Shown here: piece after piece, positions 3-14,107 of the stretch | Layout of the letters: each line of letters begins with the position of its first letter | Numbering within the stretch: position 1 is the first letter of the stretch | IMG/VR virus record: IMGVR_UViG_3300007344_000002 | Reading direction: 5' to 3' (one strand) | Origin: an uncultured virus (IMG/VR IMGVR_UViG_3300007344_000002) | Lineage: Duplodnaviria > Heunggongvirae > Uroviricota > Caudoviricetes | Length of the DNA: 27,306 nucleotides | Notes under the pieces: generated by a model | Told to the model about the DNA's origin: nothing | The model's input: only the letters and a program-made list of their open reading frames with translations | Database searches by the model: none | Translations under genes and position numbers: made by a program

Positions 3-185
3 GTCGGTAGAATTAAGACTCTAGAACAAGCAGTCTACAACAAAGATAACCTGCTTATGAAGTCGGGCTTTGTTGTTGTCGATGGCCCTACTCCATCCAT
101 GTCAAATCAATCTGTACCGGATGCTGATGCTATCCATAAGATGAGTTGGAATGACATTGAAAAGTTCGTAAATGGGAGGAACTGA
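3..185 (+). CDS. 5'-truncated small head-region protein with a scaffold-like C-terminus (not in ORF track)
   Basis: Open frame from the window edge, translated by hand: VGRIKTLEQAVYNKDNLLMKSGFVVVDGPTPSMSNQSVPDADAIHKMSWNDIEKFVNGRN*. Stop TGA at 183-185. The end resembles the scaffold C-terminus IADMSWSDIHKAVGGNI*. Confidence 0.75.
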   Translation, partial: VGRIKTLEQAVYNKDNLLMKSGFVVVDGPTPSMSNQSVPDADAIHKMSWNDIEKFVNGRN

Positions 186-186
186 T

Positions 187-417
187 ATGCCGGAAAAAAT
201 GACAAAAGAGGAAGCACAAATTAGTCGAGCAATTAGATTGGTCCGTAAAGCAAAGGAAGTTCTTCAAGAAGAAGGTAGAGAAACTCTACCATTGGAAATA
301 GAAGACCCCGATGTTAAGACTAAGAAGCCAAAGGCAGAAAAAGACGATACTAAGATTGAGAATGATACAGGTACTCATTCCGGATATGGTCTTGCTGGAG
401 ATATTAACGACGCTTGA
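187..417 (+). CDS. small charged hypothetical protein (76 aa)
   Basis: ATG at 187 follows GGAGGA (175-180) and the upstream stop at 185, so it is preferred over the ORF-track start at 172. The product is E/K-rich. Confidence 0.75.
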   Translation: MPEKMTKEEAQISRAIRLVRKAKEVLQEEGRETLPLEIEDPDVKTKKPKAEKDDTKIENDTGTHSGYGLAGDINDA

Positions 418-425
418 GTGATTCG

Positions 426-3353
426 ATGGCGACCACTGGCCTAATGTTCGAGAAGGATAAGGCTCCTTTATCTAACGAAATTTTATCTCTCTTCGAGGAA
501 ACTAGAGTCGCTTATCTATCTGCAAAATCCGACCCCAAAGAGTATGGAGGTCGGTGGAGAAATATACTTGAGAAGATTAAAGAATCGTATGATAGCCTTA
601 GTCCTCTTGGTAAAGAACTCAAAGAATATTTAGATGAGCGTCACCTTGAGGCTGATGATACAGGCAGTCCTACAAGTGGCTCTGCTAAAATCGTCTATGA
701 TTCTGTTAAGCAAATGAGATTCGACTCCGAGAATGTCAACGACCCATTCTCTAAGAAAATGAAAGGTAATGTACTAGAATCTCTACTATCGAATGTAGAT
801 GTTTTTATGAAGTTCATTCACTATGCTATTAGAAATGGTGATGATGCCTTATCTTCTAAACTCTATAATGAATTAGAATATCAAGGTGACGAGATAACTG
901 ATGGTTTGGAAGGACTAGACTTGGCATTAGATGATGTTCCTCTTTTTGTTATTGAACACTACGGCGATGATAAAGATAGTAAGAAGGTGAATTTTAAATT
1001 CAAGAATGCGCTAAAGGAACTCAAGAAGGTATTTTTATCCGGACACTCCGAAGAGGACTGGAGTAAATTAGTTGGAGTAGAATTAAAGAAATCAATGAGT
1101 GCTATGATGGCTCAAGAATTAAAATTCAAAGAAAGAATGGAAAACCCTACTATGAGAGTAGAAGAAAAACCCGATGTGACTCAAAATGTAGCAGTAGTTG
1201 AAATGGATGCTGATGTTTCGGGAGATTGTTGCGAGCAGTTAAAACAGGACTACATAGAACTCAAACGAGAAATGTTTGAATCGTTTATTGCTCATCATGG
1301 TTCTTGGGAAAAATTTACACAGGAAACTGGCCGCAGGTATGAAGATACTCCGGAAAATGAATTAAAAGAATTAACGGAATACTTTAACTCACTTGACTGT
1401 GAGGCATTGTATGAATTTATTAGTGACATATTTAGCGAGAATACTAGACCCAAAGAACAAGAAATTCTTGATAGATACGAAAGTTGTAATTCCTTTGGTT
1501 CGGACTTTTCGGATAAATACGCTATGCTTAAATCTAAAAAGTCCGAGGAAGAGAAGGCCATCTCCAACTTCCTAACTCCCAACAAACCAATGTATCGTAT
1601 ATTCGATATTGAAGATATGAATGAATTGATGGGATTCTCCGGAGATTATGTCGTACAAGAAAAGTACGATGGAATGAGAATACAAATTCATAAGATTGAT
1701 GATAAAGTTGAAATCTTTTCATTTAACGGTAAGGACATTACTGAAAAATGTACTGAACAAGTAGCAGAAATGAAAAAGAAATCTTATGGCGACTGTATTC
1801 TAGATGCAGAACTAATTCTATTCGATGGTGATAAAGCCCTACATAGAGCAGATACAGTTGCCCATGTATTCAAAAATAAATACCCCGAAGCAAAACTAAG
1901 AGCGCATGTTTTTGACATAATGCGACACGAAGAAAAGAACTTGATGGATGATGAATTACAGATTAGGATTAACATTCTATTCAATAATTACTCGGCAAAG
2001 TCTTCCGATGCCATCGCATTCCCTTCTAAGAAAGATACTAGAATCGCAGATTCTTTGAAAGACATAGAAGAATATGCTAAGGAAATAATGGAGATGCCTA
2101 CTGCGGAAGGAGTTGTTATCAAAGACTTAACTTCTACTTATTTCGTAGGAACTAAGAAAAATCCTAAGTGGATTAAGTGGAAGAAATTTGTAGATTTAGA
2201 TATGCTAGTTCTAGATAAGAAGTCTACTAAGTCAGGTCTATTCTCTTATTCTTTAGGGGCTGGCCCAGTTCTAGAAGAAGGAAAACACATTGTAGAAATG
2301 AATAACAAACTCTACATGAATGTAGGTAAGGCACTAAATACCAAGATAGATGTTAAGGTTGGAGAAGTTATTAGAGTCAAGGTAGATGAAGTAAAAGAAT
2401 CGGATGGTAGATTTACTCTCTATTCTGCTAAGGTAATCGAAGTTCCAGAGGCCGCTACTCCCGATAAGATTGTGACTTTAGAACTACTATCTAAGGATAC
2501 TAAGCCGTCTTTGAAGTACAAAGTAGAAGCACTAAAAAAAGGAATAACAATTACTGATAACATACATGGTAGTGCTACTTTAATCGCTAAGAGCATGGAT
2601 GGATTTACAATTTACGGATTTAATGAAAATAATCTAATGTCGAAGAACGCTATTGCAGACTTAGATATGTGGAAACAAGAAGCAGAGATGGCTCTAAAAA
2701 CCATTCAAGGAAAATTAAGAGCGTCTATTAAGCAGTTTGTAAAAGGAAAGGGCAAGCCACAGACCATAGGAGACTTGCATAATTTTTTGGCTAGTAATCA
2801 TGCAGGGGATTATGAATCAGTTCTAGAAAGCGATAAGAATAGGCTTGGTTCTTGGATACAAGCCTCGGAAGGAATGTCATATAGTGATGGTAAGATTTCT
2901 GTTGACGATAGTGAAATTCAAAAAGAGTCGGAAAAGGCTGAATTTAAAGTCTATTCTAGAAAGGATGGAAACTTGGACTTCATTGTAAATTACAAAGGAG
3001 AGAACTTATCTTGGTATATTGACCTAGACTCCGACGATGATATATTCTCTTTGTTTGGAAAGGCCAATAAATTCCCTGCTCAAATCTCTACAAATGTTTC
3101 AAAGGAGAAATTGATTGACCTTGGAGATGTAGAAATCGGAGTACAAAGACACGGATACCACGAATATATTCTAAATGGAAATAAGTTTGAAACTAAGATT
3201 CACTTTAGAGTAGTTCCTGTAGAAGGCAAGGATATGTGGTTAGCGTGGACAGGATATGAACAGAAGCCTGTTGATAAGGACACTGATGAAGGTATTTGGA
3301 ATATTTATGAAGACAAGTTTAAGGACTTAAAATACACAAAACAACCGAACTAG
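426..3353 (+). CDS. lig: multidomain ATP-dependent DNA ligase (long N-terminal extension, nucleotidyltransferase and OB domains, C-terminal LigD-phosphoesterase-like domain)
   Basis: Ligase motifs: I VVQEKYDGMRIQIHK (Lys at 1662-1664), III ILDAELILF, IIIa AHVFDIM, IV EGVVIK, V WIKWKK..DMLVL, followed by an OB-like region (GEVIRVKVDEV). Start is either GTG 414 or ATG 426; the latter follows GAGTGA. Confidence 0.9.
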   Translation: MATTGLMFEKDKAPLSNEILSLFEETRVAYLSAKSDPKEYGGRWRNILEKIKESYDSLSPLGKELKEYLDERHLEADDTGSPTSGSAKIVYDSVKQMRFDSENVNDPFSKKMKGNVLESLLSNVDVFMKFIHYAIRNGDDALSSKLYNELEYQGDEITDGLEGLDLALDDVPLFVIEHYGDDKDSKKVNFKFKNALKELKKVFLSGHSEEDWSKLVGVELKKSMSAMMAQELKFKERMENPTMRVEEKPDVTQNVAVVEMDADVSGDCCEQLKQDYIELKREMFESFIAHHGSWEKFTQETGRRYEDTPENELKELTEYFNSLDCEALYEFISDIFSENTRPKEQEILDRYESCNSFGSDFSDKYAMLKSKKSEEEKAISNFLTPNKPMYRIFDIEDMNELMGFSGDYVVQEKYDGMRIQIHKIDDKVEIFSFNGKDITEKCTEQVAEMKKKSYGDCILDAELILFDGDKALHRADTVAHVFKNKYPEAKLRAHVFDIMRHEEKNLMDDELQIRINILFNNYSAKSSDAIAFPSKKDTRIADSLKDIEEYAKEIMEMPTAEGVVIKDLTSTYFVGTKKNPKWIKWKKFVDLDMLVLDKKSTKSGLFSYSLGAGPVLEEGKHIVEMNNKLYMNVGKALNTKIDVKVGEVIRVKVDEVKESDGRFTLYSAKVIEVPEAATPDKIVTLELLSKDTKPSLKYKVEALKKGITITDNIHGSATLIAKSMDGFTIYGFNENNLMSKNAIADLDMWKQEAEMALKTIQGKLRASIKQFVKGKGKPQTIGDLHNFLASNHAGDYESVLESDKNRLGSWIQASEGMSYSDGKISVDDSEIQKESEKAEFKVYSRKDGNLDFIVNYKGENLSWYIDLDSDDDIFSLFGKANKFPAQISTNVSKEKLIDLGDVEIGVQRHGYHEYILNGNKFETKIHFRVVPVEGKDMWLAWTGYEQKPVDKDTDEGIWNIYEDKFKDLKYTKQPN

Positions 3354-3365
3354 TTAAATAGTGTA
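3351..3365 (+). promoter_or_regulatory. possible archaeal TATA-like promoter upstream of the protease/capsid genes
   Basis: TTAAATAG at 3355-3362 lies about 30 nt upstream of ATG 3391, in one of the few intergenic gaps. No SD is seen before ATG 3391, which is compatible with a leaderless transcript. Confidence 0.3.
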
Positions 3366-3390
3366 TTTACAACAAGACGGCTTGAGCATC

Positions 3391-4566
3391 ATGTCTATGA
3401 TTATGTCTGCAATGGAGGAGAATGATTTCTCCATCTTGAAGGCATCGAATGATGATTTAATGATTGGCGGCTATGCTTCTATCGAAATGGTAGATAAGCA
3501 AAACGACTTAATCACTCTAAAGGCCCTAAATGAGGCAGTTAAGAAATTCATGGGACATAATAAGTTCCGCAATGTAATGACTAACCACTCCAATGTTCAA
3601 GTTGGAGAAGTAGTTGAATCTCATAGAGATAGCAATGGAAAACTATGGAAGACCCAAGTAGATGATGTTGGGTTCTTCGTAGTAATTAAATTAAGAGATG
3701 ATATTGAAAAAGCAAAGGAAATAAACCGAGGAATTCGCAAAGGGTCGTTGAGGTCTTTTAGCATAGGTGGGCAAGCACTACAAAAAGTGAAGAAACACCA
3801 TGATGATTTAGGGGAGTATAGTGAGATAAGCAAACTAGAACTTCACGAAGTCACAATATGCGAAAAAGGTATCAACCCCGAAGCGAGGTTCGATATATTA
3901 AAGGAGGACAAAACAATGAACAAATTAGAAAAAGCATTGGCTGAACTAGATACTCTTCTAGAAGAAGTTAATACTCTACGAAAAGAAGAAGAAGAACCGT
4001 CAATGGAGCGAGGCGCACCTCACCCATTGGACGAGAAGATGGAAGATGAAATGATGGATACCGAGTCTATGGAATACATGGATGAAGCAAAGAAGGCCAC
4101 TACTCTCGACGGAAACGATGAGACTAACCTTGGCGGTGCTGGAGAATACATTGAAGATGCCGGAGAACAAGCAAAGAAAGAAGGAATGGTTTCAAAGAAC
4201 TTCACTAATGATGAGTTTAGAACCCTTAACCTAAGTTCAGCAAACATCGAGAAGGCTTACGAGCAATACCGAGCAGAACAACTTGAAAAGATGGGACTCG
4301 AAACTCTAGAAGAAACCTTCGCTAAGAGATTCGCTAAGGAAGAAAGCCACCGAGCAGAAATGGTCGCTAAGGCAGAATACGATGCACAATCGGAAATCGC
4401 ACGACTTAACGCAGAGTTCTCCGAACTCCGTAAGTCACTTACAGAAGAAAAGAACACGATTCGCAAGGCTACAGAAGCCGCAACAACAACTAAGGTTTTC
4501 TCAACAGAAGAGATTGCTGACATGAGTTGGAGCGACATTCACAAAGCCGTTGGCGGAAATATTTGA
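3391..4566 (+). CDS. prohead (maturation) protease, HK97/S78-like, fused to a C-terminal scaffold
   Basis: Protease motifs IGGYAS..VDKQNDLI, MTNHSN..VG (His), LRSFSIGG (Ser) and LELHEVTICEKGINPEARF. An acidic coiled-coil tail follows. The gene is directly upstream of the MCP. Start ATG 3391 preferred over GTG 3361. Confidence 0.9.
   Translation: MSMIMSAMEENDFSILKASNDDLMIGGYASIEMVDKQNDLITLKALNEAVKKFMGHNKFRNVMTNHSNVQVGEVVESHRDSNGKLWKTQVDDVGFFVVIKLRDDIEKAKEINRGIRKGSLRSFSIGGQALQKVKKHHDDLGEYSEISKLELHEVTICEKGINPEARFDILKEDKTMNKLEKALAELDTLLEEVNTLRKEEEEPSMERGAPHPLDEKMEDEMMDTESMEYMDEAKKATTLDGNDETNLGGAGEYIEDAGEQAKKEGMVSKNFTNDEFRTLNLSSANIEKAYEQYRAEQLEKMGLETLEETFAKRFAKEESHRAEMVAKAEYDAQSEIARLNAEFSELRKSLTEEKNTIRKATEAATTTKVFSTEEIADMSWSDIHKAVGGNI
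3916..4566 (+). CDS. scaffolding protein from a nested in-frame internal start (216 aa)
   Basis: AAGGAGG at 3901-3907 precedes an in-frame ATG at 3916, exactly at the end of the protease domain. The product MNKLEKALAELDTLLEEVNTLRK... is helical and acidic. Confidence 0.65.
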   Translation: MNKLEKALAELDTLLEEVNTLRKEEEEPSMERGAPHPLDEKMEDEMMDTESMEYMDEAKKATTLDGNDETNLGGAGEYIEDAGEQAKKEGMVSKNFTNDEFRTLNLSSANIEKAYEQYRAEQLEKMGLETLEETFAKRFAKEESHRAEMVAKAEYDAQSEIARLNAEFSELRKSLTEEKNTIRKATEAATTTKVFSTEEIADMSWSDIHKAVGGNI

Positions 4567-4576
4567 GGTGAATTAA

Positions 4577-5923
4577 ATGGGATACATTAACACAATTAGA
4601 GACTTAGAAGCGGCGACATACGGACTACCTGCCTTTGGTGGAAACTCTGTATTGAAACAAGCAGGTGCAGTTCAAGGACTACACACTGCACACGATATTG
4701 CAGACGCTGGCGCAAGCGGCTTGACTGGTATCGGTACTACAACTGGATACTACAACCAACTTTACGGACAGAAAGTTTGGTCAATGCTAAACCGAGAAGT
4801 AAATGCTCTCGCTATGCTATCAAAGCGACCTTACACTTCTTCCGGTTGGAGAATTCTTAAGAGCCGACCATTTGGTGGTTCCGGTTCTACTCTAGCAGTT
4901 GATATTACAGGTGACGGTTCATCAGCAAACGGTATTGGTGGAGATAACCCACACGCTGACGAAATTGGTGGTGTTCCAGAAAACGCAGGACTTTCTACTG
5001 CGGCTGACGGACTTGGCTCTATGGCCCCAACTTACGCTCAACTCTTTATGAGTCCTAAAACCATTGCACATCAGTTCGATATTTCCGAACTAGCAATGGA
5101 AATGGCTCAAATTGATGATGGACTCGGTGATATTCGGGCTATTATCCGTGAAGATATGGGTAAAGCACACGCAGAAGCACAGAACAAGATGCTCCTTATG
5201 CCTCTACAAGTTTATGGTGAAGTTTCCGCTCTAGCAAACATTGAGCGAAACTACACTTCCTTGATGAAGGTTGTTTCAAGCCGAGCAGAACTTCTAGCGG
5301 CTGACGGTGGAGTTCTTATGACCGATACAATGAATGATGCTACAAACAATCTTGCTCAAATCTATGGCGATGAGCGATTTACTGCGGCTTCTTTCCTTGA
5401 TGCAGAAATAGACTTCAACAGTTCTTACGCCGCATCTTCGGTTCGACCACTAACTCTTACTTTGCTTAACAACATGATTCGTAATCTACGAATTGCTGGC
5501 GGTTCTCCAAAGGTTATCTTGACTGGATACGATACTATCCAAGCAATTGCAGACCTACTACAGTCCCAAGAGCGATTCATGGACCGAAAGGAAATCGTTC
5601 CTACTCATAATGGTGTTCGTGGTATTAGGGGTGCAGAAGTTGGTTTCCGTGTGGCAACCTACTACGACATTCCATTGATTCCTGTTAAGGACATGGCTTC
5701 AACCCTAAACGCTTCCGATAGTGGAATTAGCGACTTGTTGTTCTTGGATACTGACCATCTATGGCTCTCTGTTCTTAAGCCGACTCAATACTTTGAAGAC
5801 GGTGTTTCTAACGGAAACCCATTCGGTGTGGGACGACTCGGCAACCAAGCACTTTACCGAACTATTGGTGAAGTTGGTTGCTCTTTCTTCAAGGGACAAG
5901 GCAAGATTACCAATGTGGCTTGA
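4577..5923 (+). CDS. major capsid protein, HK97 fold
   Basis: 448 aa, after the protease/scaffold, with SD GAGGTGA. HK97-type segments: PKTIAHQFDISELA, LTLTLLNNMIRNLRIAGGSPKVILTG, TYYDIPLIP, LLFLDTDHL. Confidence 0.9.
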   Translation: MGYINTIRDLEAATYGLPAFGGNSVLKQAGAVQGLHTAHDIADAGASGLTGIGTTTGYYNQLYGQKVWSMLNREVNALAMLSKRPYTSSGWRILKSRPFGGSGSTLAVDITGDGSSANGIGGDNPHADEIGGVPENAGLSTAADGLGSMAPTYAQLFMSPKTIAHQFDISELAMEMAQIDDGLGDIRAIIREDMGKAHAEAQNKMLLMPLQVYGEVSALANIERNYTSLMKVVSSRAELLAADGGVLMTDTMNDATNNLAQIYGDERFTAASFLDAEIDFNSSYAASSVRPLTLTLLNNMIRNLRIAGGSPKVILTGYDTIQAIADLLQSQERFMDRKEIVPTHNGVRGIRGAEVGFRVATYYDIPLIPVKDMASTLNASDSGISDLLFLDTDHLWLSVLKPTQYFEDGVSNGNPFGVGRLGNQALYRTIGEVGCSFFKGQGKITNVA

Positions 5924-5932
5924 GGTGATAAA

Positions 5933-6526
5933 GTGACAAACGCTGTTACTTTAATCGCTGACCATAAAGGTATAGCAAAGCCATTCGTTGTGGGACACCA
6001 ATATGTTTCACTAGCGAGTGTTGCTGTTTCGTCTTACCGAACAGGCTCCCCTGCTACTGCCGCTAGTCAAACTATTACTGCGGCTGATGCTGACCCTGAT
6101 ACACTAACAAGAGGTGCTGGTAGTTATCTTACTGATGGCTTTGCCGCAGGTGACTATGTGACTATTCTCGGCTCTGCTTCGGCAAACAACTCACAAGTCT
6201 TTGAGATTGCTACGCTAACTGCAACCGTTCTAACAACATCGGGACCAACTGCTCTTTCCGCTAACACCGGCAATGCAGATGAACAAGTTCTCCATGTTGG
6301 TGAAAAACTATTGGCGGCTGACTTCGGTTTGGCATCCTTCACACAAGTTGAGATTTCTAACCCATCTTTGTTGGATGCTCACTGGATTGTTGGTGACATT
6401 AGTTCGGATGGTACATACTGCTACCTTTACTGCTTCACTCTTGGTTCGGCGGCTAACACTGCCGGAGTTAAGGCTCTAGCAGACGACTTGGGAACTCTAC
6501 GAGTTCGTGCAACAGGACTTCTTTGA
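5933..6526 (+). CDS. putative capsid decoration/minor head protein with an inserted beta domain
   Basis: GTG start after GAGGTGA, immediately downstream of the MCP. A/T/G/S-rich, with a beta module (TLTRGAGSYLTDGFAAGDYVTILGS...VFEIATLTATVLT). Confidence 0.55.
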   Translation: MTNAVTLIADHKGIAKPFVVGHQYVSLASVAVSSYRTGSPATAASQTITAADADPDTLTRGAGSYLTDGFAAGDYVTILGSASANNSQVFEIATLTATVLTTSGPTALSANTGNADEQVLHVGEKLLAADFGLASFTQVEISNPSLLDAHWIVGDISSDGTYCYLYCFTLGSAANTAGVKALADDLGTLRVRATGLL

Positions 6527-6535
6527 GGTGTTTGT

Positions 6536-6946
6536 TTGGCAACCATCCGTTTAAGCGAGTCTTGTAAGGTTCCAACCTTGAGACTACGAAACGGGGTAGA
6601 GGGTTTTATGGAAGTGACGAAGGCTGAGACTATTACAATCTCGGCCTTCGTTGCTTCACATTACATTGGGGGTAAGAACTGCGTAGTTCAATTTACTTCC
6701 GAGGATAGAGAGGAAATCGAAAAATTACCTAACCGTGAAAAAGAAATCCTATCTAAATACCTTAGAGTCCCCAAAGAAACATTGGCTAATACCTTAGCCC
6801 CACTTCCTCCAAAAACAACAGTTCCGGAGAAATTGAAGGCTACTGCAAAGAAGGCTACCCGAAAGTCTACTAAGAAACCTGCCGCTAAAAAGGCAACTAC
6901 TAAGAAGACTACTACCAAGGCAGAACCCACTACAGAAGAAGAGTGA
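6536..6946 (+). CDS. hypothetical protein with a histone-H1-like Lys/Ala/Thr-rich tail
   Basis: TTG start after GAGGTG. C-terminus KATAKKATRKSTKKPAAKKATTKKTTTKAE. Confidence 0.7.
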   Translation: MATIRLSESCKVPTLRLRNGVEGFMEVTKAETITISAFVASHYIGGKNCVVQFTSEDREEIEKLPNREKEILSKYLRVPKETLANTLAPLPPKTTVPEKLKATAKKATRKSTKKPAAKKATTKKTTTKAEPTTEEE

Positions 6947-6999
6947 TTACACAACCTTCATTAAGAGGGGCTAATTACCAACATCTAAGAAGTGATGTT

Positions 7000-7299
7000 A
7001 TGGCAGATACATGCAGAAGCAGTGGAGTCCTTGGGGCAAGCGCAATAATTTCTAAGACGCAGTGCAGATTGAAAAGCATTCACGCTAACATTGTTATTGC
7101 TAGCAATGCGGCAGTGACCGTTAAAGTGTTTGATGGACAAGATAATAGCGGTACAGAAATTGCTAGAATTCACAATACGACCACAGGACAGTATAATCTA
7201 GAATATGATATGCACGGTGTATTATGCACTAGCGGTATATTTTTGGAAATAGCAGAAGCCGGTTCTTCCACTGCACACATTTCAGTGGAATTTAATTGA
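7000..7299 (+). CDS. small beta-rich putative virion protein (99 aa)
   Basis: ATG 7000 after GAAGTGA is preferred over the ORF-track start at 6943. The sequence alternates short beta-strand-like segments. Confidence 0.65.
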   Translation: MADTCRSSGVLGASAIISKTQCRLKSIHANIVIASNAAVTVKVFDGQDNSGTEIARIHNTTTGQYNLEYDMHGVLCTSGIFLEIAEAGSSTAHISVEFN

Positions 7300-7308
7300 G
7301 GTGGTTAA

Positions 7309-7707
7309 TTGCCAGCATTGAATCACGACACTCGATTGATTATGACTATCCTATTCGTAGGTACAGTTAGTGGAGCGAATGTTTTCTTCTACGCTAAATT
7401 CGGTTTGAACTTTCCATATACCATTCTAATGCACGGCGTATTGTTTGGACTCATTACAGTAGGGTCCGTTATGGTAATGAAGGCACTATTTGACTTGGCT
7501 CTTAATGACAAAATTGAGATGTGGCTTTTGGACAGAAGGATTACTGCTTATTGGCAAAGAATCGCTAAAGATGAACAACAAAGAAAGAAGATGCAAGATT
7601 CTTTGAAGACATTTCAAAACGAAAATCAAACTAATAGAATACCCCAAATTTCTCCGCAATATGAAACTGAGGGAGTTTCAGCCGATTTCTTAGCCACCCT
7701 GCAATGA
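7309..7707 (+). CDS. membrane protein, two TM helices plus C-terminal coiled coil (holin-like architecture)
   Basis: Hydrophobic segments LIMTILFVGTVSGANVFFYA and ILMHGVLFGLITVGSVMVMKALF, then charged WQRIAKDEQQRKKMQDSLK. TTG start after GAGGTGG. Confidence 0.7.
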   Translation: MPALNHDTRLIMTILFVGTVSGANVFFYAKFGLNFPYTILMHGVLFGLITVGSVMVMKALFDLALNDKIEMWLLDRRITAYWQRIAKDEQQRKKMQDSLKTFQNENQTNRIPQISPQYETEGVSADFLATLQ

Positions 7708-7716
7708 GGTGGTTGA

Positions 7717-7947
7717 ATGGTTCTTGGCGACATAATGGGTTTCAGTGACTCCGACTATGCTTATAATCAACAAAGAGCGCATTCTGCTGATTTGTTTTTT
7801 ATTAAAATGAGAGCATGGTTTTGGGGCGGTTGTTCTACTTTATTTTTTTTCTTGGTAGGTAATATAATAGGTGTCGTTTTCGACATTAGTATTATGGGTT
7901 GGCTCATAGATAAGACAGTAAGTTTTTGGGATTATTTATGGCATTGA
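7717..7947 (+). CDS. small membrane protein (76 aa)
   Basis: Hydrophobic segment AWFWGGCSTLFFFLVGNIIGVVFDISIMGWLI and a Trp-rich amphipathic end. SD GAGGTGG. Confidence 0.7.
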   Translation: MVLGDIMGFSDSDYAYNQQRAHSADLFFIKMRAWFWGGCSTLFFFLVGNIIGVVFDISIMGWLIDKTVSFWDYLWH

Positions 7948-7956
7948 GGTATTCAA

Positions 7957-8619
7957 ATGTCTGTTCTAGCCGGTTTTGCTGTAGTTTGTATTGAAGCAAC
8001 AGTGGCATTTTACAAGAGAATTCACGCTATCCAATTTGGAGTCTACGGGGCTACAATGGTAGGTAAGACTACTTTACATCATCAACTTAGAACGAGAGGC
8101 GAAGTACCGGAAATTAGAGATAGAACTGTAGGTAGGCAAAGGGCTTCTAGAAAAACAATTAAGATGGACGGAGATACCCACACTGTTAAGACCGCAGATA
8201 TGGGTGGGGAAGCAATTTATTGGAAGCAGTGGATTGACGATATACGAAGTAGAAATGTCAAATATGTCATTTTTGTAGTAGACCATAGACATTTAGATTC
8301 TGCCGCTAATTTAGACCATCAACTTGCATGGAAGTTTTTAGTTGATGCTATTTGTAGTCAAACTTGGCCCAATGGTAAAAAGAAAAAGAATACCGATTAC
8401 CCCCTAGCCGTTGGTATTTGGGCTAACAAGTATGACATTTGGGGAGATAAATACAAGGAAGATGTGGATATTTCTAAGCATTCAATCTTCGCTCCATTTA
8501 AATATGGGATGCAACAGTTAAACGATAAGGGAATACCAACTTACAAGTATATTATTTCCGCTAAATCTCAGCCGGAAATGGTCTACAAGGGCGTTATTAC
8601 AATGATAAAGGATTACTGA
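7957..8619 (+). CDS. Ras-superfamily (Arf-like) small GTPase
   Basis: G1 GATMVGKTT (8047-8073), G2 RTVG, G3 DMGGE (8197-8211), VIFVVD strand, G4 NKYD (8425-8436), G5 SAK (8557-8565), and an N-terminal hydrophobic helix. Confidence 0.88.
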   Translation: MSVLAGFAVVCIEATVAFYKRIHAIQFGVYGATMVGKTTLHHQLRTRGEVPEIRDRTVGRQRASRKTIKMDGDTHTVKTADMGGEAIYWKQWIDDIRSRNVKYVIFVVDHRHLDSAANLDHQLAWKFLVDAICSQTWPNGKKKKNTDYPLAVGIWANKYDIWGDKYKEDVDISKHSIFAPFKYGMQQLNDKGIPTYKYIISAKSQPEMVYKGVITMIKDY

Positions 8620-8623
8620 TATT

Positions 8624-9163
8624 ATGTGGAAGGATATTTTAAAAGTGGACAGATTCACTAATGAAGGGGGATATAAAGGGGTCTATGATAAACAAACTGA
8701 TGAGGTTTTAATCAACTTAGATAATTTTAATACAGTAGCAAGAGGCTATGACGATATGGAAAGAGTTGTTGAGTTTGCTAATGTAGTGACGCATGAATTA
8801 TCCCACAGAGAATATGCAAAAGAATTAGGCAATAGCATGGATACAGTTCTTAAGGAATTGGACTCTATAGTTAAACAGTATGCAGAAGGTAATGCAACAT
8901 TAGATTCTATTGGTGAAAAACTTAAAATTTTCTATAACTATGCTATTATCAATGAGTCATTTGCATTTGGAAGCGGAAAGGACTACGAAAGATTGAGTCA
9001 TTTAGATGGAACAAAAAGTTCAGTTAGGTCTGTAATGTCTCAGGTTAATAATCACATTAGAAAACTAGTAGGTAAAAAAGACAGGCAGTTGGAAAAAATG
9101 TTGTCTAGGCTTTATGATGAAACCATGAGAGCAATTAGAAAGGTAAGAGATGGTAGCGCATAG
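8624..9163 (+). CDS. zincin-like metallopeptidase with an MWKDILK leader
   Basis: HELSH (HExxH) at 8792-8806, preceded by a G-x-Y...V-x-I-N strand pair. Candidate third ligand in INESFA. The gene looks AT-rich by eye. Confidence 0.7.
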   Translation: MWKDILKVDRFTNEGGYKGVYDKQTDEVLINLDNFNTVARGYDDMERVVEFANVVTHELSHREYAKELGNSMDTVLKELDSIVKQYAEGNATLDSIGEKLKIFYNYAIINESFAFGSGKDYERLSHLDGTKSSVRSVMSQVNNHIRKLVGKKDRQLEKMLSRLYDETMRAIRKVRDGSA

Positions 9164-9207
9164 AGGCGACAGAAACCTATACAAAGAAAAGAAAACGAGG
9201 AATAATT

Positions 9208-9837
9208 ATGTTTCAACAGCCCAACCTAATCGCCAACAATCCTAGTCTTGCTAGTTCGTTCTTGCCTCCTCTAATGAGCGCAAGAGCCGCAGGTCCGGTT
9301 TCCGAATATTCTTTCGTACAAATTAAACCAAAGAAGATGCTGAAAGAGATTACCAAAGTACTCAATGCAGAAAAAAAGAAATTCTTATTCATCAAGTACG
9401 GCTGGAAATTTAATCTAAAAGACCGTTGTGTTGTCTGTGGTGTCCACCATGTTTGGGATAACGGAGATTACATGAGGCCACCTATTCCCCTAAGCCATGT
9501 GACTAAAGGTAGGCCGATGCGAGGTACTTACTGTCCCAAACACGCTACACATCACAGACAACTGGAAATGCTACAACAACAGATACTAGCAGATGAGCAT
9601 GGTCTTGATTTCAAAGCGTTTATTCCAAAGCCTAGAATGCCCCAAGTTTTATCTAAGGGACCACTTACCACACTATCAAAGGCCGATGTTATTTCTCTAG
9701 CGGCGATTGGTTGGGCGATAAGTCCACCCAAAACCGAAGGAGAAGAAAAACCCATTGAAGAATTAAACAGACTCTCCTTAGAAATACGATTGGCAAGCGA
9801 AAGAATGGGCGAAATTATAAAAAAAGGTGAACAATGA
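9208..9837 (+). CDS. putative zinc-binding protein with a C-terminal coiled coil
   Basis: CVVC (9427-9438) and CPKH (9532-9543) pairs, Pro-rich linkers, helical C-terminus. SD GAGG. Confidence 0.65.
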   Translation: MFQQPNLIANNPSLASSFLPPLMSARAAGPVSEYSFVQIKPKKMLKEITKVLNAEKKKFLFIKYGWKFNLKDRCVVCGVHHVWDNGDYMRPPIPLSHVTKGRPMRGTYCPKHATHHRQLEMLQQQILADEHGLDFKAFIPKPRMPQVLSKGPLTTLSKADVISLAAIGWAISPPKTEGEEKPIEELNRLSLEIRLASERMGEIIKKGEQ

Positions 9838-10484
9838 TGGGCGTTTTTGGAACAAGCAATACAGCAGTTATGGGCGCAGTACAAGCGCAGAATGATACTC
9901 AATTTAAGACGGTCAATAATCTTCTGTCTTTACAAGAGAACCATGTGGAAGAGTTCTTTCAATATCATGGTGAACAGTTCTTATCTAGTTTGGAGCAGTT
10001 GATGGAAGATGTAATTGATAGGAGCGTTAGTAAGATGCTCACTAAATTAGAGTTCTATCAAGATTCTACTACTGGAAACATGAAGGTTAGTAGTGATAGT
10101 CTAAGAGAATACGAACAGATTACTCAAGAAAATATTGACTTGGATATGAACGCTATCTTAAATTCTGCCATCAATTCGGAAATTATCAATCAAAGAAAAA
10201 TGGCTAAACAACAATACCTAGAATCACAAGGATTTAGTGGAGCATCTAATCCCGCACAAGGTATGCCTCAACAACCAATTCAACAAGGAACATATGGAGC
10301 AACAGGGCTAGCAATGAACAACGGAAGCGGCTACCCTATTCCTCCTAGTGGACAAGACAACTATGGTAGGCCATATTGGATTGACCCAAGCACAGGACAA
10401 ATGAGTTATGAGCCTCCACAAAGCGGATTACACCTAGCCCAAAAAGCACAGAAATTAGCGGCTTGGGGCAAGTGGCTAATGTGA
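9834..10484 (+). CDS. helical protein with a Gln/Pro-rich linker and a C-terminal WW-like motif
   Basis: Overlaps the upstream stop (ATGA), SD GGTGA. C-terminal IPPSGQDNYGRPYWIDPSTGQMSYEPP followed by an amphipathic end LAAWGKWLM. Confidence 0.7.
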   Translation: MMGVFGTSNTAVMGAVQAQNDTQFKTVNNLLSLQENHVEEFFQYHGEQFLSSLEQLMEDVIDRSVSKMLTKLEFYQDSTTGNMKVSSDSLREYEQITQENIDLDMNAILNSAINSEIINQRKMAKQQYLESQGFSGASNPAQGMPQQPIQQGTYGATGLAMNNGSGYPIPPSGQDNYGRPYWIDPSTGQMSYEPPQSGLHLAQKAQKLAAWGKWLM

Positions 10485-10496
10485 AGGTGATTTACA

Positions 10497-12095
10497 TTGG
10501 TCAATTTCAAACTAAATCGTACAACGACTTACAACTTAGATAAGGATACCTTAGAAAAGGATATTGTAGAATATATTTTTGATGAACACTTATCGAGCGA
10601 ATCTAAAATTTTAGACGATTTAGATTCGCTCGATGGAACAGAAGAAAACTTTCAAGAATTTGTTGATAAATTACAAGCAATAGTAGTTCCTTTAGAACAA
10701 AGAACTATTGCTAGTATTGTCAATGATGAATCGTATAATTTGAAAAACAAATTGAAAGACGAATACAGTGGGGGAGGGGGAGACAAAACTCCAATAATTC
10801 CTAGCCTACTTAATTATTCAATAAAGGATTTAGATGCTCCTAATTTACTGAAAAGAGTTTCCGGCTTTGGTTCTTTTTCCGAGTTTAGAAAGCCTACTAG
10901 TGAAGATATAGACGAGGCAAACATTGCGGCGGAACTATCGCCATTATTTAATCTAGATGAATTATCTGCATTACAAGATAAAGTCTATGTGCGCCTAGGT
11001 AAAGTTCTTTTAGATGCAGTAGACGCTGGATTAGAAGAGGCTAAAGGTAAATTCACAGAAGAGAAATTCTTCAAGGGAGAACAATTCACTTTAGAAATAG
11101 ACTTAGATGAAAAAGCGCAAGTGCTTAGAGAGCAAGGTATTGCAGAAGTTGTTAGACTTGAAACTGATACAGAAAAAGTAAAGGCCATTGCTAGTTTAGA
11201 AGGCAAGGATGAATTAGACAAAGCCGCTAGTGAATTATTTTCTGCTGGAATTAAGTCTATGAAAAATACTGCTGGTGAAACCTTTTCAAGTTTGGATTTG
11301 GATGCAGGAGTTCTTGCTAAAATTATCCTTCTCACATTACCATCTGTTTTAGATTTAGACATTTCTAATAATTTGAAATTGACATTGGATTTTAAAAGTA
11401 AGGGTGCAAGAAAATTGACCGAAGAAAAATCTCACGATTTCATAACAGAAGGAGTGAAGAGATTAGTAAAGCATGTTAAATCTACTGAGCCTAGAAGGGC
11501 TGTAGCCCAATTGAAAAAGAATATTCTTAGTACATTCAAAGAACTATCTCTAGTCAATAAAAAGAGGGAAGATGGTCTTCTATACGATGAAGATTTAAAG
11601 GAAGCAAAAAGATTGTATAAAAAACTAAACTCTTATGATACTGAATGGAAAGACCAACAACGGATTCCAGAGGCTGAAATACTAGCCGAGAAAACTGAAA
11701 CTAAATTAGTTAAAATAGAGAAGTTTATGACTGCTGGATTTACTGATGCCATTAGTAGAGATGTTTTAGGAGCAAAGAATGAAGTTATTATTGAAATAAC
11801 CCATGAATATACTGAATTAAAATTCACACAAATGGCTAATCTAAAAGTAAAAGGTCAAGGGGATGAAAGAGTAGGGAGCGCGACCCCTACAGAAAGACCA
11901 CTAAAAATGAAAGAATCGGAAAGCGAAGAAGAATACGCTGAAAGAATGGCAAGTTATGGCTTGCCTCATCTTCGCTTAATAGGGGATGATTTAGCCGCAC
12001 AACAAATATTTGTCTCGGATTTCATAAGCGAAATACTAGGAAACTTTGATGATTTAGAAGAAGAACTTGCCGAATTAAAAGAGAAGGTGATATAA
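10497..12095 (+). CDS. large acidic alpha-helical hypothetical protein (532 aa)
   Basis: TTG start after AAGGTGA. Long E/D/K/L-rich ORF with no motif I recognise. Confidence 0.75.
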   Translation: MVNFKLNRTTTYNLDKDTLEKDIVEYIFDEHLSSESKILDDLDSLDGTEENFQEFVDKLQAIVVPLEQRTIASIVNDESYNLKNKLKDEYSGGGGDKTPIIPSLLNYSIKDLDAPNLLKRVSGFGSFSEFRKPTSEDIDEANIAAELSPLFNLDELSALQDKVYVRLGKVLLDAVDAGLEEAKGKFTEEKFFKGEQFTLEIDLDEKAQVLREQGIAEVVRLETDTEKVKAIASLEGKDELDKAASELFSAGIKSMKNTAGETFSSLDLDAGVLAKIILLTLPSVLDLDISNNLKLTLDFKSKGARKLTEEKSHDFITEGVKRLVKHVKSTEPRRAVAQLKKNILSTFKELSLVNKKREDGLLYDEDLKEAKRLYKKLNSYDTEWKDQQRIPEAEILAEKTETKLVKIEKFMTAGFTDAISRDVLGAKNEVIIEITHEYTELKFTQMANLKVKGQGDERVGSATPTERPLKMKESESEEEYAERMASYGLPHLRLIGDDLAAQQIFVSDFISEILGNFDDLEEELAELKEKVI

Positions 12096-13399
12096 TGCCA
12101 GTTGCATCCTCCCCCAGTGACTATACCTCGATTAACCCAAACTATGCTACAGGGCAAGGATTCTATACAGATATTGGAGCAGTATCGGATTTACTACAGG
12201 TGACTCCATTTACTTCCGGTACTAATCCATCTGCCGCACAAGTCGGCTCAATCATTAAGAGAATAGAAGGAATGGTTGATGAGAAAATTAACCGTTCTTA
12301 TCGACCTATCATTTGGAAGAATGAGTTCAAGGATTTTGAATTTACTCGCCATCCAATAATGTCTTATTATGGAGGCTATGTAGGATTTATACAACTGCAA
12401 CAGATGAAGATTAGAAAGATTGTAAGTCTAAGAGTTTGGGAAGGAAACGCCTATCGAGAATTGGCTTCTGCTCAAGCCTCGATTACTCTCCTAGAAAACT
12501 TTAGAGATATTCATTCTCTTATTTTCCAACTACCTAATAGTGGGGTTTCTTTTGAACTGTTAGCAGAAAACGATGTTTCCGCTTTAGCAAACGATGAGTT
12601 TTGTACTACCTTCGGAATAAAGACTACCAATAATGAAATTGTTGATTTGATTAACGAAAAGTTTCCATCGAACACCTCCCAATTTACAGGAGCAACTGCT
12701 TCAAAGGAACTATCATCTAGTAATCTCAATGTTTCCGATTTTTTCTTCTCGCAGAAAGACGACCAAGACGGTACTAAAGTCTTAATTTCATCTTTATTAT
12801 CCGGTGATGATGGAGCAGGTTGCACACTAAAGGCTACTATTCAACAGTCCTGTACTACTAGTAATACTAGCACTAGTTTAACTGTAGCCGATTCTAGTAA
12901 ATTAGCAGTAGATATGGAAGTCACAGGAACTAATATTCCTTCTTCTACTACTATTTCTTCTATTGATACTTCAACTACTGTCACTCTTTCTAAAGCCGCT
13001 ACGGGTTCTGCATCAAGCACACTAACCTTTACCACTACCAATGAAATCCCCACAGTTTGTTCTCTTGTAGCCTTTACTGACAAAGAAGATATGAAGCGTT
13101 TGGGCGACTTTTGGATGATGAGCGATGATGGAAGAATCTTCTTTTTGAAGAAGTATCCTTATCATAATAAGAACTCAATCATTGTTTCTTATGTTGCTGG
13201 TGATGGAAGAGTACCTTCTACAGTTCACGAAGCCACTACCAAATTAGTAGCGGCAGAAATTCTACGACATGACGACCAAACAATAATGATTGCTGAAACC
13301 GGAGCAAACATATCAGCGAAGGAAAAGTACGATTTACTTCGTGCAGAAGGCTTGGCTCTTATTGATGGTAAGAAAGACTTAGTGTATATGTTGGATTGA
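12095..13399 (+). CDS. putative head-tail adaptor/connector with inserted domains
   Basis: N-terminal YTDIGAVSDLL...IIKRIEGMVDEKINRSY and C-terminal IIVSYVAGDGRVPSTVHEATTKLVAAEIL resemble SPP1 gp15/HK97 gp6-like adaptors. Position is between head and tail genes. Confidence 0.65.
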   Translation: MPVASSPSDYTSINPNYATGQGFYTDIGAVSDLLQVTPFTSGTNPSAAQVGSIIKRIEGMVDEKINRSYRPIIWKNEFKDFEFTRHPIMSYYGGYVGFIQLQQMKIRKIVSLRVWEGNAYRELASAQASITLLENFRDIHSLIFQLPNSGVSFELLAENDVSALANDEFCTTFGIKTTNNEIVDLINEKFPSNTSQFTGATASKELSSSNLNVSDFFFSQKDDQDGTKVLISSLLSGDDGAGCTLKATIQQSCTTSNTSTSLTVADSSKLAVDMEVTGTNIPSSTTISSIDTSTTVTLSKAATGSASSTLTFTTTNEIPTVCSLVAFTDKEDMKRLGDFWMMSDDGRIFFLKKYPYHNKNSIIVSYVAGDGRVPSTVHEATTKLVAAEILRHDDQTIMIAETGANISAKEKYDLLRAEGLALIDGKKDLVYMLD

Positions 13400-13404
13400 T
13401 TGGT

Positions 13405-13914
13405 ATGTGGAAAAACATATTAAAAAATAACAGTGGTGGTAAAACTCACATTCCTTATCACACTAAAGTAGAATTTATGAATGGTTTGTATCGGGAACTT
13501 TATGATACAATAGAAAGAAAGGAAGGACTTGAGGGTTTTGAGTTCAACAATGGAATGATTTATTTTCCTAATTACATATTGAGTTTTAACCCAAATGTTG
13601 GTCGTCATAATGACGACTTTATACCAAAACCATTTGAAGAAATACAAATAATATTAGATGTAGATTGGTATGATTTGTGGTATAGAGGGTTTGAAGACGA
13701 AATAAATGAAATTGCTGATGGTTTTGGCGAAGAATACAGATTAAAAGCAGAAGACCAAGGCGTTCATCCTGTTTATGAATACAATGCAGGTTCTCACAAT
13801 AATGAAGCCGGTGGTACAATTAGTGTGTTTTCAAAAACCTCTAATTCATTCATTGAGTCTTTAATTAAAAACATTCATAAAAAAATAGAAAGTAAATTTG
13901 ACGGAAGGGATTGA
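13405..13914 (+). CDS. hypothetical protein with an MWKNILK leader (169 aa)
   Basis: ATG 13405 is preferred over TTG 13396. AT-rich gene lying between neck genes; no catalytic motif recognised. Confidence 0.7.
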   Translation: MWKNILKNNSGGKTHIPYHTKVEFMNGLYRELYDTIERKEGLEGFEFNNGMIYFPNYILSFNPNVGRHNDDFIPKPFEEIQIILDVDWYDLWYRGFEDEINEIADGFGEEYRLKAEDQGVHPVYEYNAGSHNNEAGGTISVFSKTSNSFIESLIKNIHKKIESKFDGRD

Positions 13915-13915
13915 T

Positions 13916-14107
13916 ATGTTGAAGATTACTGAAACTCTAAACTCTTTGATAGATAAACACAAAGAGCGTCAATTAGAAATGGAAAGAGTTTCTACTATTC
14001 TAGGAATTGACATTTCTTTCTCGGATGAAGAATTGGCTAGGTTCATTGAAGAAGATTTAGAAAAGGCAATCTCTCAATCAATAATGGAGGAAATGGTCTA
14101 TGGATGA
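13916..14107 (+). CDS. small acidic helical protein (63 aa)
   Basis: ATG 13916 follows GGAAGGGA and the upstream stop at 13914. The end overlaps the next gene's start. Confidence 0.65.
   Translation: MLKITETLNSLIDKHKERQLEMERVSTILGIDISFSDEELARFIEEDLEKAISQSIMEEMVYG

What the first reader, a model, noticed from the sequence alone, without database searches (positions are those of the whole stretch)
141..13425. Scaffold-tail peptide W-x-[DN]-I-x-K reused as a leader on unrelated genes: candidate capsid cargo-loading tag
Seen: the scaffold ends IADMSWSDIHKAVGGNI* (motif 4522-4545) and the truncated first ORF ends IHKMSWNDIEKFVNGRN* (141-164). Two otherwise unrelated genes start MWKDILK (8624-8644) and MWKNILK (13405-13425). 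The ligase has a looser WRNILEK near its N-terminus (555-575). The two leaders differ at synonymous positions (AAG/AAA, ATT/ATA), so conservation is at protein level. Established: scaffold C-terminal helices bind the capsid interior (P22, herpesvirus), T4 internal proteins carry a short cleavable capsid-targeting leader, and encapsulins load cargo through short peptides. Inference: this virus may use a ~7-aa scaffold-mimic tag so that acquired genes are packaged into the head and delivered at infection. The leader ends in ILK, as do both edges of the protease domain (FSILK|AS, FDILK|ED), so it may be clipped by the maturation protease.
Basis: partly seen in the sequence, partly recalled or inferred. 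Interest (0 to 1): 0.9.

Follow-up and report, generated by a model that had tools for sequence, protein, structure and literature searches.

The report
Shared leader peptide on magrovirus proteins
Many unrelated small proteins of an abundant ocean archaeal virus begin with the same eight-residue peptide, probably a clip-off label that brings them into the virus head, although neither loading nor clipping has been measured.

Summary
In the window, W-x-[DN]-I-x-K occurs four times, always at a protein end (0.037 expected). The window is the structural arm of a magrovirus-like archaeal tailed virus. In 159 related loci of two magrovirus groups, 200 open reading frames (ORFs) start M-(x)-W-x-x-[IV]-[LI]-K on the coding strand and none on the other strand. 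They fall into 61 unrelated families. The leader is selected as a peptide and is absent from cellular genomes.

The leader's I-L-K end matches three invariant sites: both edges of the S78 head protease and the capsid protein N-arm. Its likeness to the scaffold tail is only partial. The scaffold tail and the small protein's tail co-vary by clade, but the leaders do not.

The best reading (0.5) is a T4 capsid-targeting-sequence (CTS)-like removable propeptide for the procapsid. My paper searches found no description in print.

This scan has noted the same system on other magrovirus windows, with the same reading.

The parts
3..185 (+). 3' part of a ~75-aa helical 'mini-scaffold' gene. It is cut by the window edge. 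Its C-tail HKMSWNDIEKFVNGRN carries the motif at 141-164.
   Evidence: Full-length orthologs of 75-102 aa in relatives end in M-[SDE]-W-x-[DE]-I-[HED]-K-x-V..GG. This tail co-varies by clade with the scaffold tail.
3361..4566 (+). Head maturation protease (S78) fused to a scaffold region: an acidic linker, a long coiled coil and a C-tail.
   Evidence: Pfam PF04586 E 3.1e-10, 40.8 bits against a cut-off of 21. PHROG head maturation protease. In the AF2 model only helix 293-375 is confident, followed by short helices 382-387 and 390-397.
3427..3441 (+). FSILK: candidate protease cleavage site at the N-edge of the protease domain (residues 23-27).
   Evidence: F23, I25 and K27 are invariant in 43 sequences from two virus groups, and the site is kept in 62 unique close relatives. 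A distant relative without leaders has GLLLK at the same place. Cleavage is inferred, not measured.
3886..3903 (+). RFDILK: candidate cleavage site at the protease/scaffold junction (residues 176-181).
   Evidence: F177, D178, I179, L180 and K181 are invariant in 43 sequences. A distant relative has FQVLK here. Inferred.
4522..4545 (+). Scaffold C-tail core MSWSDIHK. The conserved tail runs from about 4504 to 4563.
   Evidence: Tail conserved in 41 distinct C-termini. W390, D392, I393 and H394 are invariant across two groups. Predicted helical at 390-397.
4577..5923 (+). Major capsid protein (HK97-like). Candidate N-arm cleavage site GNSVLK|Q at 4640-4657.
   Evidence: PHROG major head protein E 2.9e-23. 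Pfam SU10_MCP 26.5 bits against a cut-off of 24.1. All 39 distinct N-termini of relatives have G-N-x-[LVIM]-L-K-Q at this place.
8624..9163 (+). 179-aa protein with the N-terminal leader MWKDILK (8624-8644). It has a conserved HExxH motif.
   Evidence: All 20 aligned homologs start M-W-[KF]-x-[ILV]-[LI]-K, and H57, E58 and H61 are conserved. In the AF2 model (pLDDT 86.8), residues 1-5 score under 50, so the leader is not part of the fold core.
13405..13914 (+). 169-aa protein of unknown function with the N-terminal leader MWKNILK (13405-13425).
   Evidence: Orthologs in L012, L010 and L030 keep a leader. It is unrelated to the 8624 product beyond residues 1-7.

Best explanation
The leader M-(S/T/N)-W-x-(D/N/E)-(I/V)-(L/I)-K is a short removable propeptide. 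Magroviruses put it on a large, fast-changing set of small soluble late proteins.

Proposed mechanism, with all steps inferred. The leader brings the protein into the assembling procapsid, where it docks on the protease-scaffold core or the inner face of the capsid shell. The S78 head protease then cuts after the Lys. The same protease would cut the capsid protein N-arm (..V-L-K|Q) and free itself from the scaffold (F-S-I-L-K|, F-D-I-L-K|). Clipped cargo would stay in the head and could enter the host with the DNA.

The scaffold and a separate ~75-aa 'mini-scaffold' carry a related but distinct C-terminal tail (M-x-W-x-D-I-H), which is most likely their own anchor in the shell.

Shown here: the leader exists, it lies at true starts, it is selected as a peptide, it is modular, it is confined to the structural arm and to these viruses, and it ends like three conserved sites in head proteins. 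Not shown: binding, packaging, cutting and delivery.
For: 1. Scale and strand. There are 94 N-terminal leaders on the coding strand and 0 on the other strand in 79 loci plus the window. A second group (capsid protein 62% identical) gives 106 against 0.

2. Real starts. Of 210 leader ATGs, 205 have an in-frame stop within 30 codons upstream. A Shine-Dalgarno-like 5-mer precedes 61% of them, against 10% of 3,180 random ATGs.

3. Peptide-level selection. Leu codons are CTT 20, CTA 18, TTA 13, TTG 7, CTC 5 and CTG 1. Ile codons are ATT 34, ATA 29 and ATC 4.

4. Unrelated carriers. The 111 unique proteins form 61 BLASTP families. None of the 61 has a membrane-like segment or a Pfam hit above cut-off.

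5. Modularity. Among the best 120 homolog clusters of one payload domain, 37 carry an N-terminal leader and 76 carry none. The leaderless ones include Roseobacter phage CRP-13 gp69.

6. Genomic place. In two complete genomes, 17 of 135 and 11 of 133 ORFs carry the leader. All lie on the structural arm, and 0 of 70 and 0 of 67 ORFs on the other arm carry it.

7. The I-L-K end equals invariant sites at both protease edges and in the capsid N-arm. These sites also exist in distant relatives that lack leaders.

8. In the AF2 model of the 8624 product, residues 1-5 score pLDDT under 50, so the leader is not confidently folded onto the domain.

9. It is not a cellular signal. The strict DNA pattern gives 20 scattered hits in 596 Gb of prokaryote genomes, against 24 in 2 Mb of magrovirus loci.

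10. There is precedent. The T4 CTS is a short N-terminal propeptide on diverse internal proteins and is removed by the head protease (passages in PMC3012670 and PMC7411985).
Against: No experiment or structure prediction links the leader to the capsid. No virion proteome exists for these uncultured viruses.

The leader does not track changes in the scaffold tail. In the clade whose tail is W-A-D-L-N-R, 8 of 9 leaders still end in K and 7 of 9 keep I. In the sister group the tail has no Lys, yet the leaders are unchanged.

[ILV]-L-K is a short motif that occurs by chance, so the cleavage-site reading rests on position and conservation only. The aromatic residue sits at a different register: W at -5 in leaders and F at -4 at the protease edges.

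Most carriers have no known function, so nothing in their content points to injected effectors. The 8624 family is a conserved core gene at a fixed place in the head-tail module, not variable cargo.
Confidence: 0.5

Rival explanations
1. Strict scaffold mimicry. The leader occupies the same pocket on the capsid protein as the scaffold C-tail, so cargo competes with the scaffold for the shell's inner surface.
For: In the window's own group the consensus sequences are close: MSWxDILK against MSWSDIHK. Met, Trp, Asp and Ile share the same spacing. Two proteins already share the tail. In phage 80alpha, CpmB competes with the scaffold for one site on the capsid protein (abstract of PMC5644958).
Against: The shared invariant residues shrink to W and I at +3 once both virus groups are aligned. 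The tail needs H and not K, whereas the leader needs L/I-K. The two tails co-vary by clade, and the leaders do not. In leaders the Asp is only 25 of 78, with Asn 15 of 78.
Confidence: 0.2
2. Processing signal for transient head-assembly factors. The tagged proteins enter the procapsid or bind the protease-scaffold as substrates. They are then cut and degraded or expelled like the scaffold, and are not delivered to the host.
For: The leader's end is identical to the protease/scaffold junction. 11 of 78 leaders have F at x1, and W-F-D-I-L-K, which contains F-D-I-L-K, is among the commonest forms. The receptor could be the protease's substrate groove. The 8624 family is a conserved gene inside the head-tail module.
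Against: Sixty-one mostly lineage-specific families, some shared with bacteriophages, look like accessory genes rather than assembly factors. A virus would not need dozens of changing assembly helpers.
Confidence: 0.12
3. A tag unrelated to the capsid. It could be a docking peptide for another viral or host hub, or a stability or regulatory signal shared by late accessory proteins.
For: No data tie the leader to particles. The leaders evolve independently of the scaffold tail. The carriers are small proteins of unknown function.
Against: The leader is found only on the structural arm, next to the portal, protease and capsid genes. It ends like conserved sites in the protease and capsid protein. 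It is absent from cellular genomes, including any labelled Poseidoniales, so a host sorting signal is unlikely.
Confidence: 0.15
4. A DNA-level element, such as a recombination boundary, promoter or translation signal, that happens to be translated.
For: It lies at gene starts within dense gene arrays, where cassette exchange would be useful.
Against: Synonymous codons vary freely at Leu, Ile and Lys. Substitutions are conservative at the protein level, such as I to V and L to I. The related motif also sits at C-termini.
Confidence: 0.03

Closest known systems
Capsid targeting sequence (CTS) of phage T4 internal proteins IPI-III and Alt
   Same: It is a short N-terminal propeptide on otherwise diverse proteins. 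It ends in the head protease's cleavage motif, and the carriers are a variable accessory set (passages in PMC3012670 and PMC7411985).
   Different: The host is an archaeon rather than a bacterium. The peptide sequence differs. The putative cut is after Lys by an S78 (HK97-type) protease fused to the scaffold, not after Glu by gp21. There are far more carriers, 11-17 per genome. Nothing is shown experimentally here.
Phage 80alpha scaffolding protein and SaPI1 CpmB
   Same: A scaffold and a separate ~75-aa helical protein share a C-terminal peptide. In 80alpha the two compete for one site on the capsid protein (abstract of PMC5644958).
   Different: Here both proteins belong to the same virus and are conserved core genes. 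No capsid size-redirection role is implied. There is no sequence similarity. Binding is untested.
Phage P1 DarB N-terminal packaging signal
   Same: An N-terminal signal (30 residues) is sufficient to direct a reporter protein into the capsid (abstract and passages of PMC9024508).
   Different: It is a single protein with a longer signal, not a shared tag on dozens of families.
HK97 protease C-terminal targeting and giant-phage SPN3US propeptides
   Same: Head proteases and ejection proteins carry terminal propeptides proposed or shown to target them into the prohead. For SPN3US I read passages of PMC7411985. For HK97 (Duda et al. 2013) I saw only the title in a reference list; its content is recalled.
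   Different: Those propeptides are long (64-130 residues in SPN3US) and specific to each protein, not an 8-residue consensus.
Encapsulin cargo-loading peptides (recalled, no call)
   Same: Short terminal peptides load unrelated cargo into an HK97-fold shell.
   Different: Encapsulins are cellular compartments without DNA, portal or protease. Their peptide is not removed. There is no sequence likeness.

Membership tests
T4-type capsid targeting sequence system | The same short N-terminal peptide sits on otherwise unrelated proteins. | tested here: met
   61 BLASTP families carry it. The two window proteins align only over residues 1-7.
T4-type capsid targeting sequence system | The peptide ends in the head protease's cleavage motif, which is also used in capsid and scaffold proteins. 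| tested here: inconclusive
   Motif identity is met: I-L-K occurs at both protease edges and [LVIM]-L-K in the capsid N-arm. No cleavage has been measured.
T4-type capsid targeting sequence system | The carriers are found in virions and the peptide is sufficient to package a foreign protein. | not testable with these tools
T4-type capsid targeting sequence system | Homology to the T4 CTS and the gp21 protease. | tested here: not met
   The protease here is Pfam S78 (PF04586), the HK97 type. That gp21 belongs to a different protease family is recalled, not tested. This system is therefore an analogue, not a member.
Scaffold C-terminal capsid-docking peptide (80alpha SP/CpmB type) | A conserved peptide lies at the extreme C-end of the scaffold and is shared with a second small helical protein. 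| tested here: met
Scaffold C-terminal capsid-docking peptide (80alpha SP/CpmB type) | The peptide binds the capsid protein. | not testable with these tools
The single-chain AF2 model of the protease-scaffold is poor, with pLDDT 54.5.
Caudovirus prohead serine protease S78 | Profile match above the curated cut-off. | tested here: met
   PF04586: 40.8 bits against a cut-off of 21, E 3.1e-10, residues 30-183.
Magrovirus (Poseidoniales tailed virus) structural module | A capsid protein related to halovirus capsid proteins, an ATP-dependent ligase gene embedded in the structural module, and a ~90-kb genome with structural and replicative arms. | tested here: met
   The capsid protein hits only haloarchaeal and other archaeal viruses in the phage collection. 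A ligase domain lies in the 979-aa protein upstream of the protease, as described in PMC5434244. Related complete contigs of 92-93 kb have two arms. Host assignment was not tested here.

The most novel reading that the evidence does not exclude
Magroviruses, among the most abundant viruses of ocean archaea, run a programmable protein-loading system. An 8-residue address tag loads dozens of rapidly exchanged proteins into the capsid, some captured from bacteriophages. The head protease clips the tag, and the proteins are injected with the DNA as first-strike effectors. That would make the tag a portable handle for packing chosen proteins into an archaeal virus capsid.
Probability: 0.3. Interest if true: 0.85.

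Novelty: new variant of a known kind. Interest (0 to 1): 0.7.

Why it matters
If the reading is right, about one late gene in four to six of an abundant marine archaeal virus group encodes capsid cargo. No cargo-loading signal has been described for an archaeal tailed virus in the papers I searched.

The tag would turn a large block of genes of unknown function into a defined class: proteins present at the first moment of infection. It would predict the specificity of an uncharacterised S78 protease, which would cut after [ILV]-L-K. It would also give a minimal peptide for loading proteins into HK97-fold shells.

The natural pair of tagged and untagged versions of one domain offers a ready-made test case.

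Tried and rejected
- Complex prediction (capsid protein alignment A2 with the 8624 family A1) was not available, and nothing was folded. Binding to the capsid protein remains untested.
- AF2 of the protease-scaffold (A3, 43 sequences) gave a poor model: pLDDT 54.5, pTM 0.24. It says nothing about whether the tail or the junction docks on the protease.
- Fold searches with the 8624-product model found no credible match. Foldseek against PDB gave a best E of 0.2. VIA wide gave a best Z of 9.2, within the stated noise range for helical bundles.
- For the same protein, the Atlas gave only unnamed clusters plus a weak LPD23 lead on 18% of one cluster's members. Pfam at E up to 10 gave DUF922 in 10 of 20 members, best E 0.0017, below cut-off. 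The zinc-peptidase idea therefore rests on the HExxH motif alone.
- The Atlas found nothing usable for the 13405 product, and a homolog search gave one cluster.
- Ligase WRNILEK as a tag: rejected.
- The capsid protein's internal W-L-S-V-L-K (5762-5779) is conserved in 13 close relatives. The consensus of the 73-sequence alignment A2, which includes distant homologs, has no majority residue at the Trp column. I treat it as coincidence.
- Halovirus HCTV-1, whose capsid protein is 25% identical, has no leader or tail motif in the 25 kb around its capsid gene.
- RNA contigs from three marine metatranscriptome studies cover only the capsid gene and its neighbour, in relatives 90-95% alike. The one run covering 13327-13681 is RNA only by guess. 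This gives no evidence either way on expression of the leader genes.
- Leader-tail covariation was looked for and not found.
- No whole genome is held for this window.


Full report
**What the window is.** All long ORFs lie on the + strand. The gene order is as follows.
- A 5'-cut small ORF (3-185) and an 81-aa acidic protein.
- A 979-aa protein with an ATP-dependent DNA ligase domain (PF01068, E 8.9e-28).
- An S78 head protease fused to a scaffold region (3361-4566).
- The major capsid protein (4577-5923).
- Small head and connector genes.
- A tail tube protein (PF18906), a tail chaperone pair and a tape measure protein.
- A 2,159-aa protein.

In the phage collection the capsid protein matches only archaeal tailed viruses, at 21-25% identity. 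IMG/VR holds hundreds of close relatives on contigs of up to 92-93 kb with terminal repeats. A ligase gene embedded in the structural module is a feature described for magroviruses (PMC5434244, passages). I therefore treat the window as the structural arm of a magrovirus-like virus. The host was not tested.

W.[DN]I.K occurs four times in 8,992 residues. It occurs nowhere else in the six frames. All four matches follow a Met and lie at a protein end. Within-protein shuffles give a mean of 0.037, and 0 of 5,000 reach four. The two leader proteins share nothing beyond residues 1-7. The ligase's WRNILEK is internal and poorly conserved, so I drop it.

**Relatives confirm it independently.**
- In 80 loci (0.98 Mb; L001 is identical to the window) the strict motif occurs 130 times on the coding strand. 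It never occurs in 341,491 residues of opposite-strand frames. Of the 130, 46 are N-terminal after Met, 82 lie within 12 residues of a stop, and 2 are leader-like with other start contexts.
- The core W..[ILVM][ILVF]K gives 94 N-terminal cases on the coding strand against 0 on the other strand.
- A second group, with a capsid protein about 62% identical, gives 106 against 0 in 80 loci.
- Of 210 leader ATGs, 205 have an in-frame stop within 30 codons upstream. A Shine-Dalgarno-like 5-mer precedes 61% of them, against 10% of 3,180 random ATGs. These are real starts.
- Codon use shows selection on the peptide. Leu is CTT 20, CTA 18, TTA 13, TTG 7, CTC 5 and CTG 1. Ile is ATT 34, ATA 29 and ATC 4. 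Lys is AAA 58 and AAG 20, among 78 distinct 24-mers.

**Who carries the leader.**
- 123 leader ORFs reduce to 111 unique proteins. These form 61 BLASTP families (E 1e-3, first 12 residues removed). Family representatives are 51-631 aa long, with a median of 126 aa. None has a membrane-like segment.
- None of the 61 reaches a Pfam cut-off. Seven of the 61 hit PHROGs of unknown function, and where the domain matches, the match starts after the leader.
- In two complete genomes, 17 of 135 and 11 of 133 ORFs carry it. All are on the structural arm, mostly in arrays upstream of the portal gene. None of the 70 and 67 ORFs on the other arm carries it. The portal was identified by PF04860 in L012.
In the 80 loci fetched, 66 have two or more leader starts. 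There are 289 leader starts on the hit strand and 0 on the other strand.
- The same pattern finds only 20 scattered hits in 596 Gb of bacterial and archaeal genomes. Most are not at ORF starts, and none lies in a record labelled Poseidoniales. By comparison there are 24 hits in 2 Mb of magrovirus loci. The leader is therefore a viral signal, not a cellular one.

**The leader is modular.** One leader protein (L015, 172 aa) ends in a basic ~100-aa domain that has 3,290 homologs.
- Among the best 120 clusters, 37 start with the leader and have the domain anchor at residue ~41.
- Seven have the leader preceded by an upstream extension.
- Seventy-six have no leader and have the anchor at residue ~30. 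These include Roseobacter phage CRP-13 gp69.
- The leaderless form occurs in 48 phage records of marine bacteria.

In the AF2 model of the window's 8624 product (pLDDT 86.8), residues 1-5 score under 50. The model therefore does not place the leader in the fold core. In this family, however, conserved sequence follows the leader directly, with no linker.

**Three related motifs, not one.**
- (a) The N-leader is M-(x)-W-x-[DNE]-[IV]-[LI]-K.
- (b) The C-tail sits on the protease-scaffold and on the ~75-aa protein whose 3' end opens the window. Its form is ..D-E-h-A-x-M-[SDE]-W-x-D-I-H-[KRN]-h-h.. (h = hydrophobic). It is conserved in 41 distinct scaffold ends and in the small protein.
- (c) Candidate protease sites are F-x-I-[LI]-K before the protease domain, R-F-D-I-L-K at the protease/scaffold junction, and G-N-x-[LVIM]-L-K-Q in the capsid N-arm. 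They occur in all 62 unique scaffolds and all 39 distinct capsid N-termini examined.

Across both virus groups (43 sequences) the invariant residues are F23, I25, K27, F177-K181, W390, D392, I393 and H394. The tail's Lys is not invariant. In the sister group the tail reads W-[GSD]-D-I-H-[NTS].

The two tails co-vary by clade: MSW pairs with MSW, M[DE]W..IHKMV pairs with the same, and a divergent W-A-D-L-N-R scaffold pairs with an M-S-F-[ED]-[ED]-M-A-K small protein. The leaders do not follow these changes.

Distant relatives (the loci L213-L217 were fetched with an MCP homolog that is 46% identical to the window's) have no leaders. They keep G-L-L-L-K and F-Q-V-L-K at the protease edges, V-M-K in the capsid N-arm, and a W-x-x-V-H tail.

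My reading is that the sites and the tail are old and the leader is a magrovirus innovation. The leader looks like the front of the tail joined to a cleavage site.

**Mechanism.** The best-supported account is a removable propeptide that marks late accessory proteins for the procapsid and is cut after Lys by the S78 protease. This is analogous to the T4 capsid targeting sequence (passages in PMC3012670 and PMC7411985).

The receptor is open. It could be the shell's inner face, which is the tail-mimic version and is weakened by the lack of covariation. It could instead be the protease-scaffold core, which is the substrate-mimic version and fits the identical F-D-I-L-K.

The tail shared by the scaffold and the mini-scaffold resembles the 80alpha scaffold/CpmB pair (abstract of PMC5644958).

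All binding, cutting and delivery steps are inferred.

**Novelty.**
- Two magrovirus papers contain no 'leader' or 'N-terminal' wording. The first has no 'motif' either, and the second has two unrelated uses of it (PMC5434244 and PMC11706807, term searches of the full text).
- No held paper combines 'archaeal virus' with 'capsid targeting'.
- None of six leader or tail strings occurs in any held paper.
- Subscription papers and supplements were not searched.
- This scan has already noted the same system on other magrovirus windows and reached the same reading. That includes the partial independence of tail and leader and the I-L-K sites. My tests agree with those notes but are not independent proof of function.

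**Verdict.** This is a new variant of a known kind: CTS-like tagging in archaeal viruses, using a different peptide and a different protease family. Function is unproven.

Noticed in passing
window 414-3353: A 979-aa protein with an ATP-dependent DNA ligase domain (residues 409-590) sits directly upstream of the head protease. Haloarcula virus HCTV-1 has a Mu gpF-like gene and a 1,211-aa 'zeta toxin domain' protein in the same position. The embedded ligase is noted in PMC5434244. Its large N- and C-terminal regions have no family hit. It could itself be a head-internal protein.
   Followed up: partly
window 8624-9163: The leader protein family has invariant H57, E58 and H61 (HExxH) plus N110 and E111. 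This suggests a small zinc peptidase. No fold match was found, and the only Pfam hint is sub-threshold DUF922.
   Followed up: partly
window 7957-8619: A 220-aa protein gives weak P-loop GTPase-like hits (SRPRB, MMR_HSR1, Roc; E about 1e-3, below cut-offs). It is conserved just upstream of the 8624 leader gene in relatives.
   Followed up: no
window 5762-5779: The capsid protein contains an internal W-L-S-V-L-K that matches the loose leader core. It is conserved in close relatives, but the consensus of the wider alignment A2 has no majority residue at the Trp column. It is probably a coincidence.
   Followed up: partly
L015 83-598 and P0183-P0302: A very basic ~100-aa domain (3,290 homologs) is shared at 70-80% identity between magrovirus leader proteins and cultured marine bacteriophages (Roseobacter, cyanophages, HMO-2011). 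In Celeribacter phage P12053L it is the last gene of an operon of large hypothetical proteins. This points to gene exchange between viruses of bacteria and of archaea.
   Followed up: partly
L012 5774-6001 and orthologs (window 3-185): The mini-scaffold also has a conserved [ML]-L-x-[IV]-[LI]-K near its N-end. This is a further candidate protease site.
   Followed up: no
window 20549-27028: A 2,159-aa ORF after the tape measure and distal tail genes has no Pfam or PHROG hit. It is presumably a tail fibre or receptor-binding protein.
   Followed up: no
P0183, P0192, P0264, P0277: Some leader proteins carry a second, internal leader-like site (for example ..T-K-E-D-I-L-K-R-K-P-K-S..) behind an N-terminal extension that has its own leader. 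These could be tandem cleavage sites or fused genes.
   Followed up: no
window 4000-13950: The DNA runs that hold this stretch almost completely are labelled freshwater metagenomes, whereas magroviruses are described from marine and brackish water. I did not pursue this.
   Followed up: no
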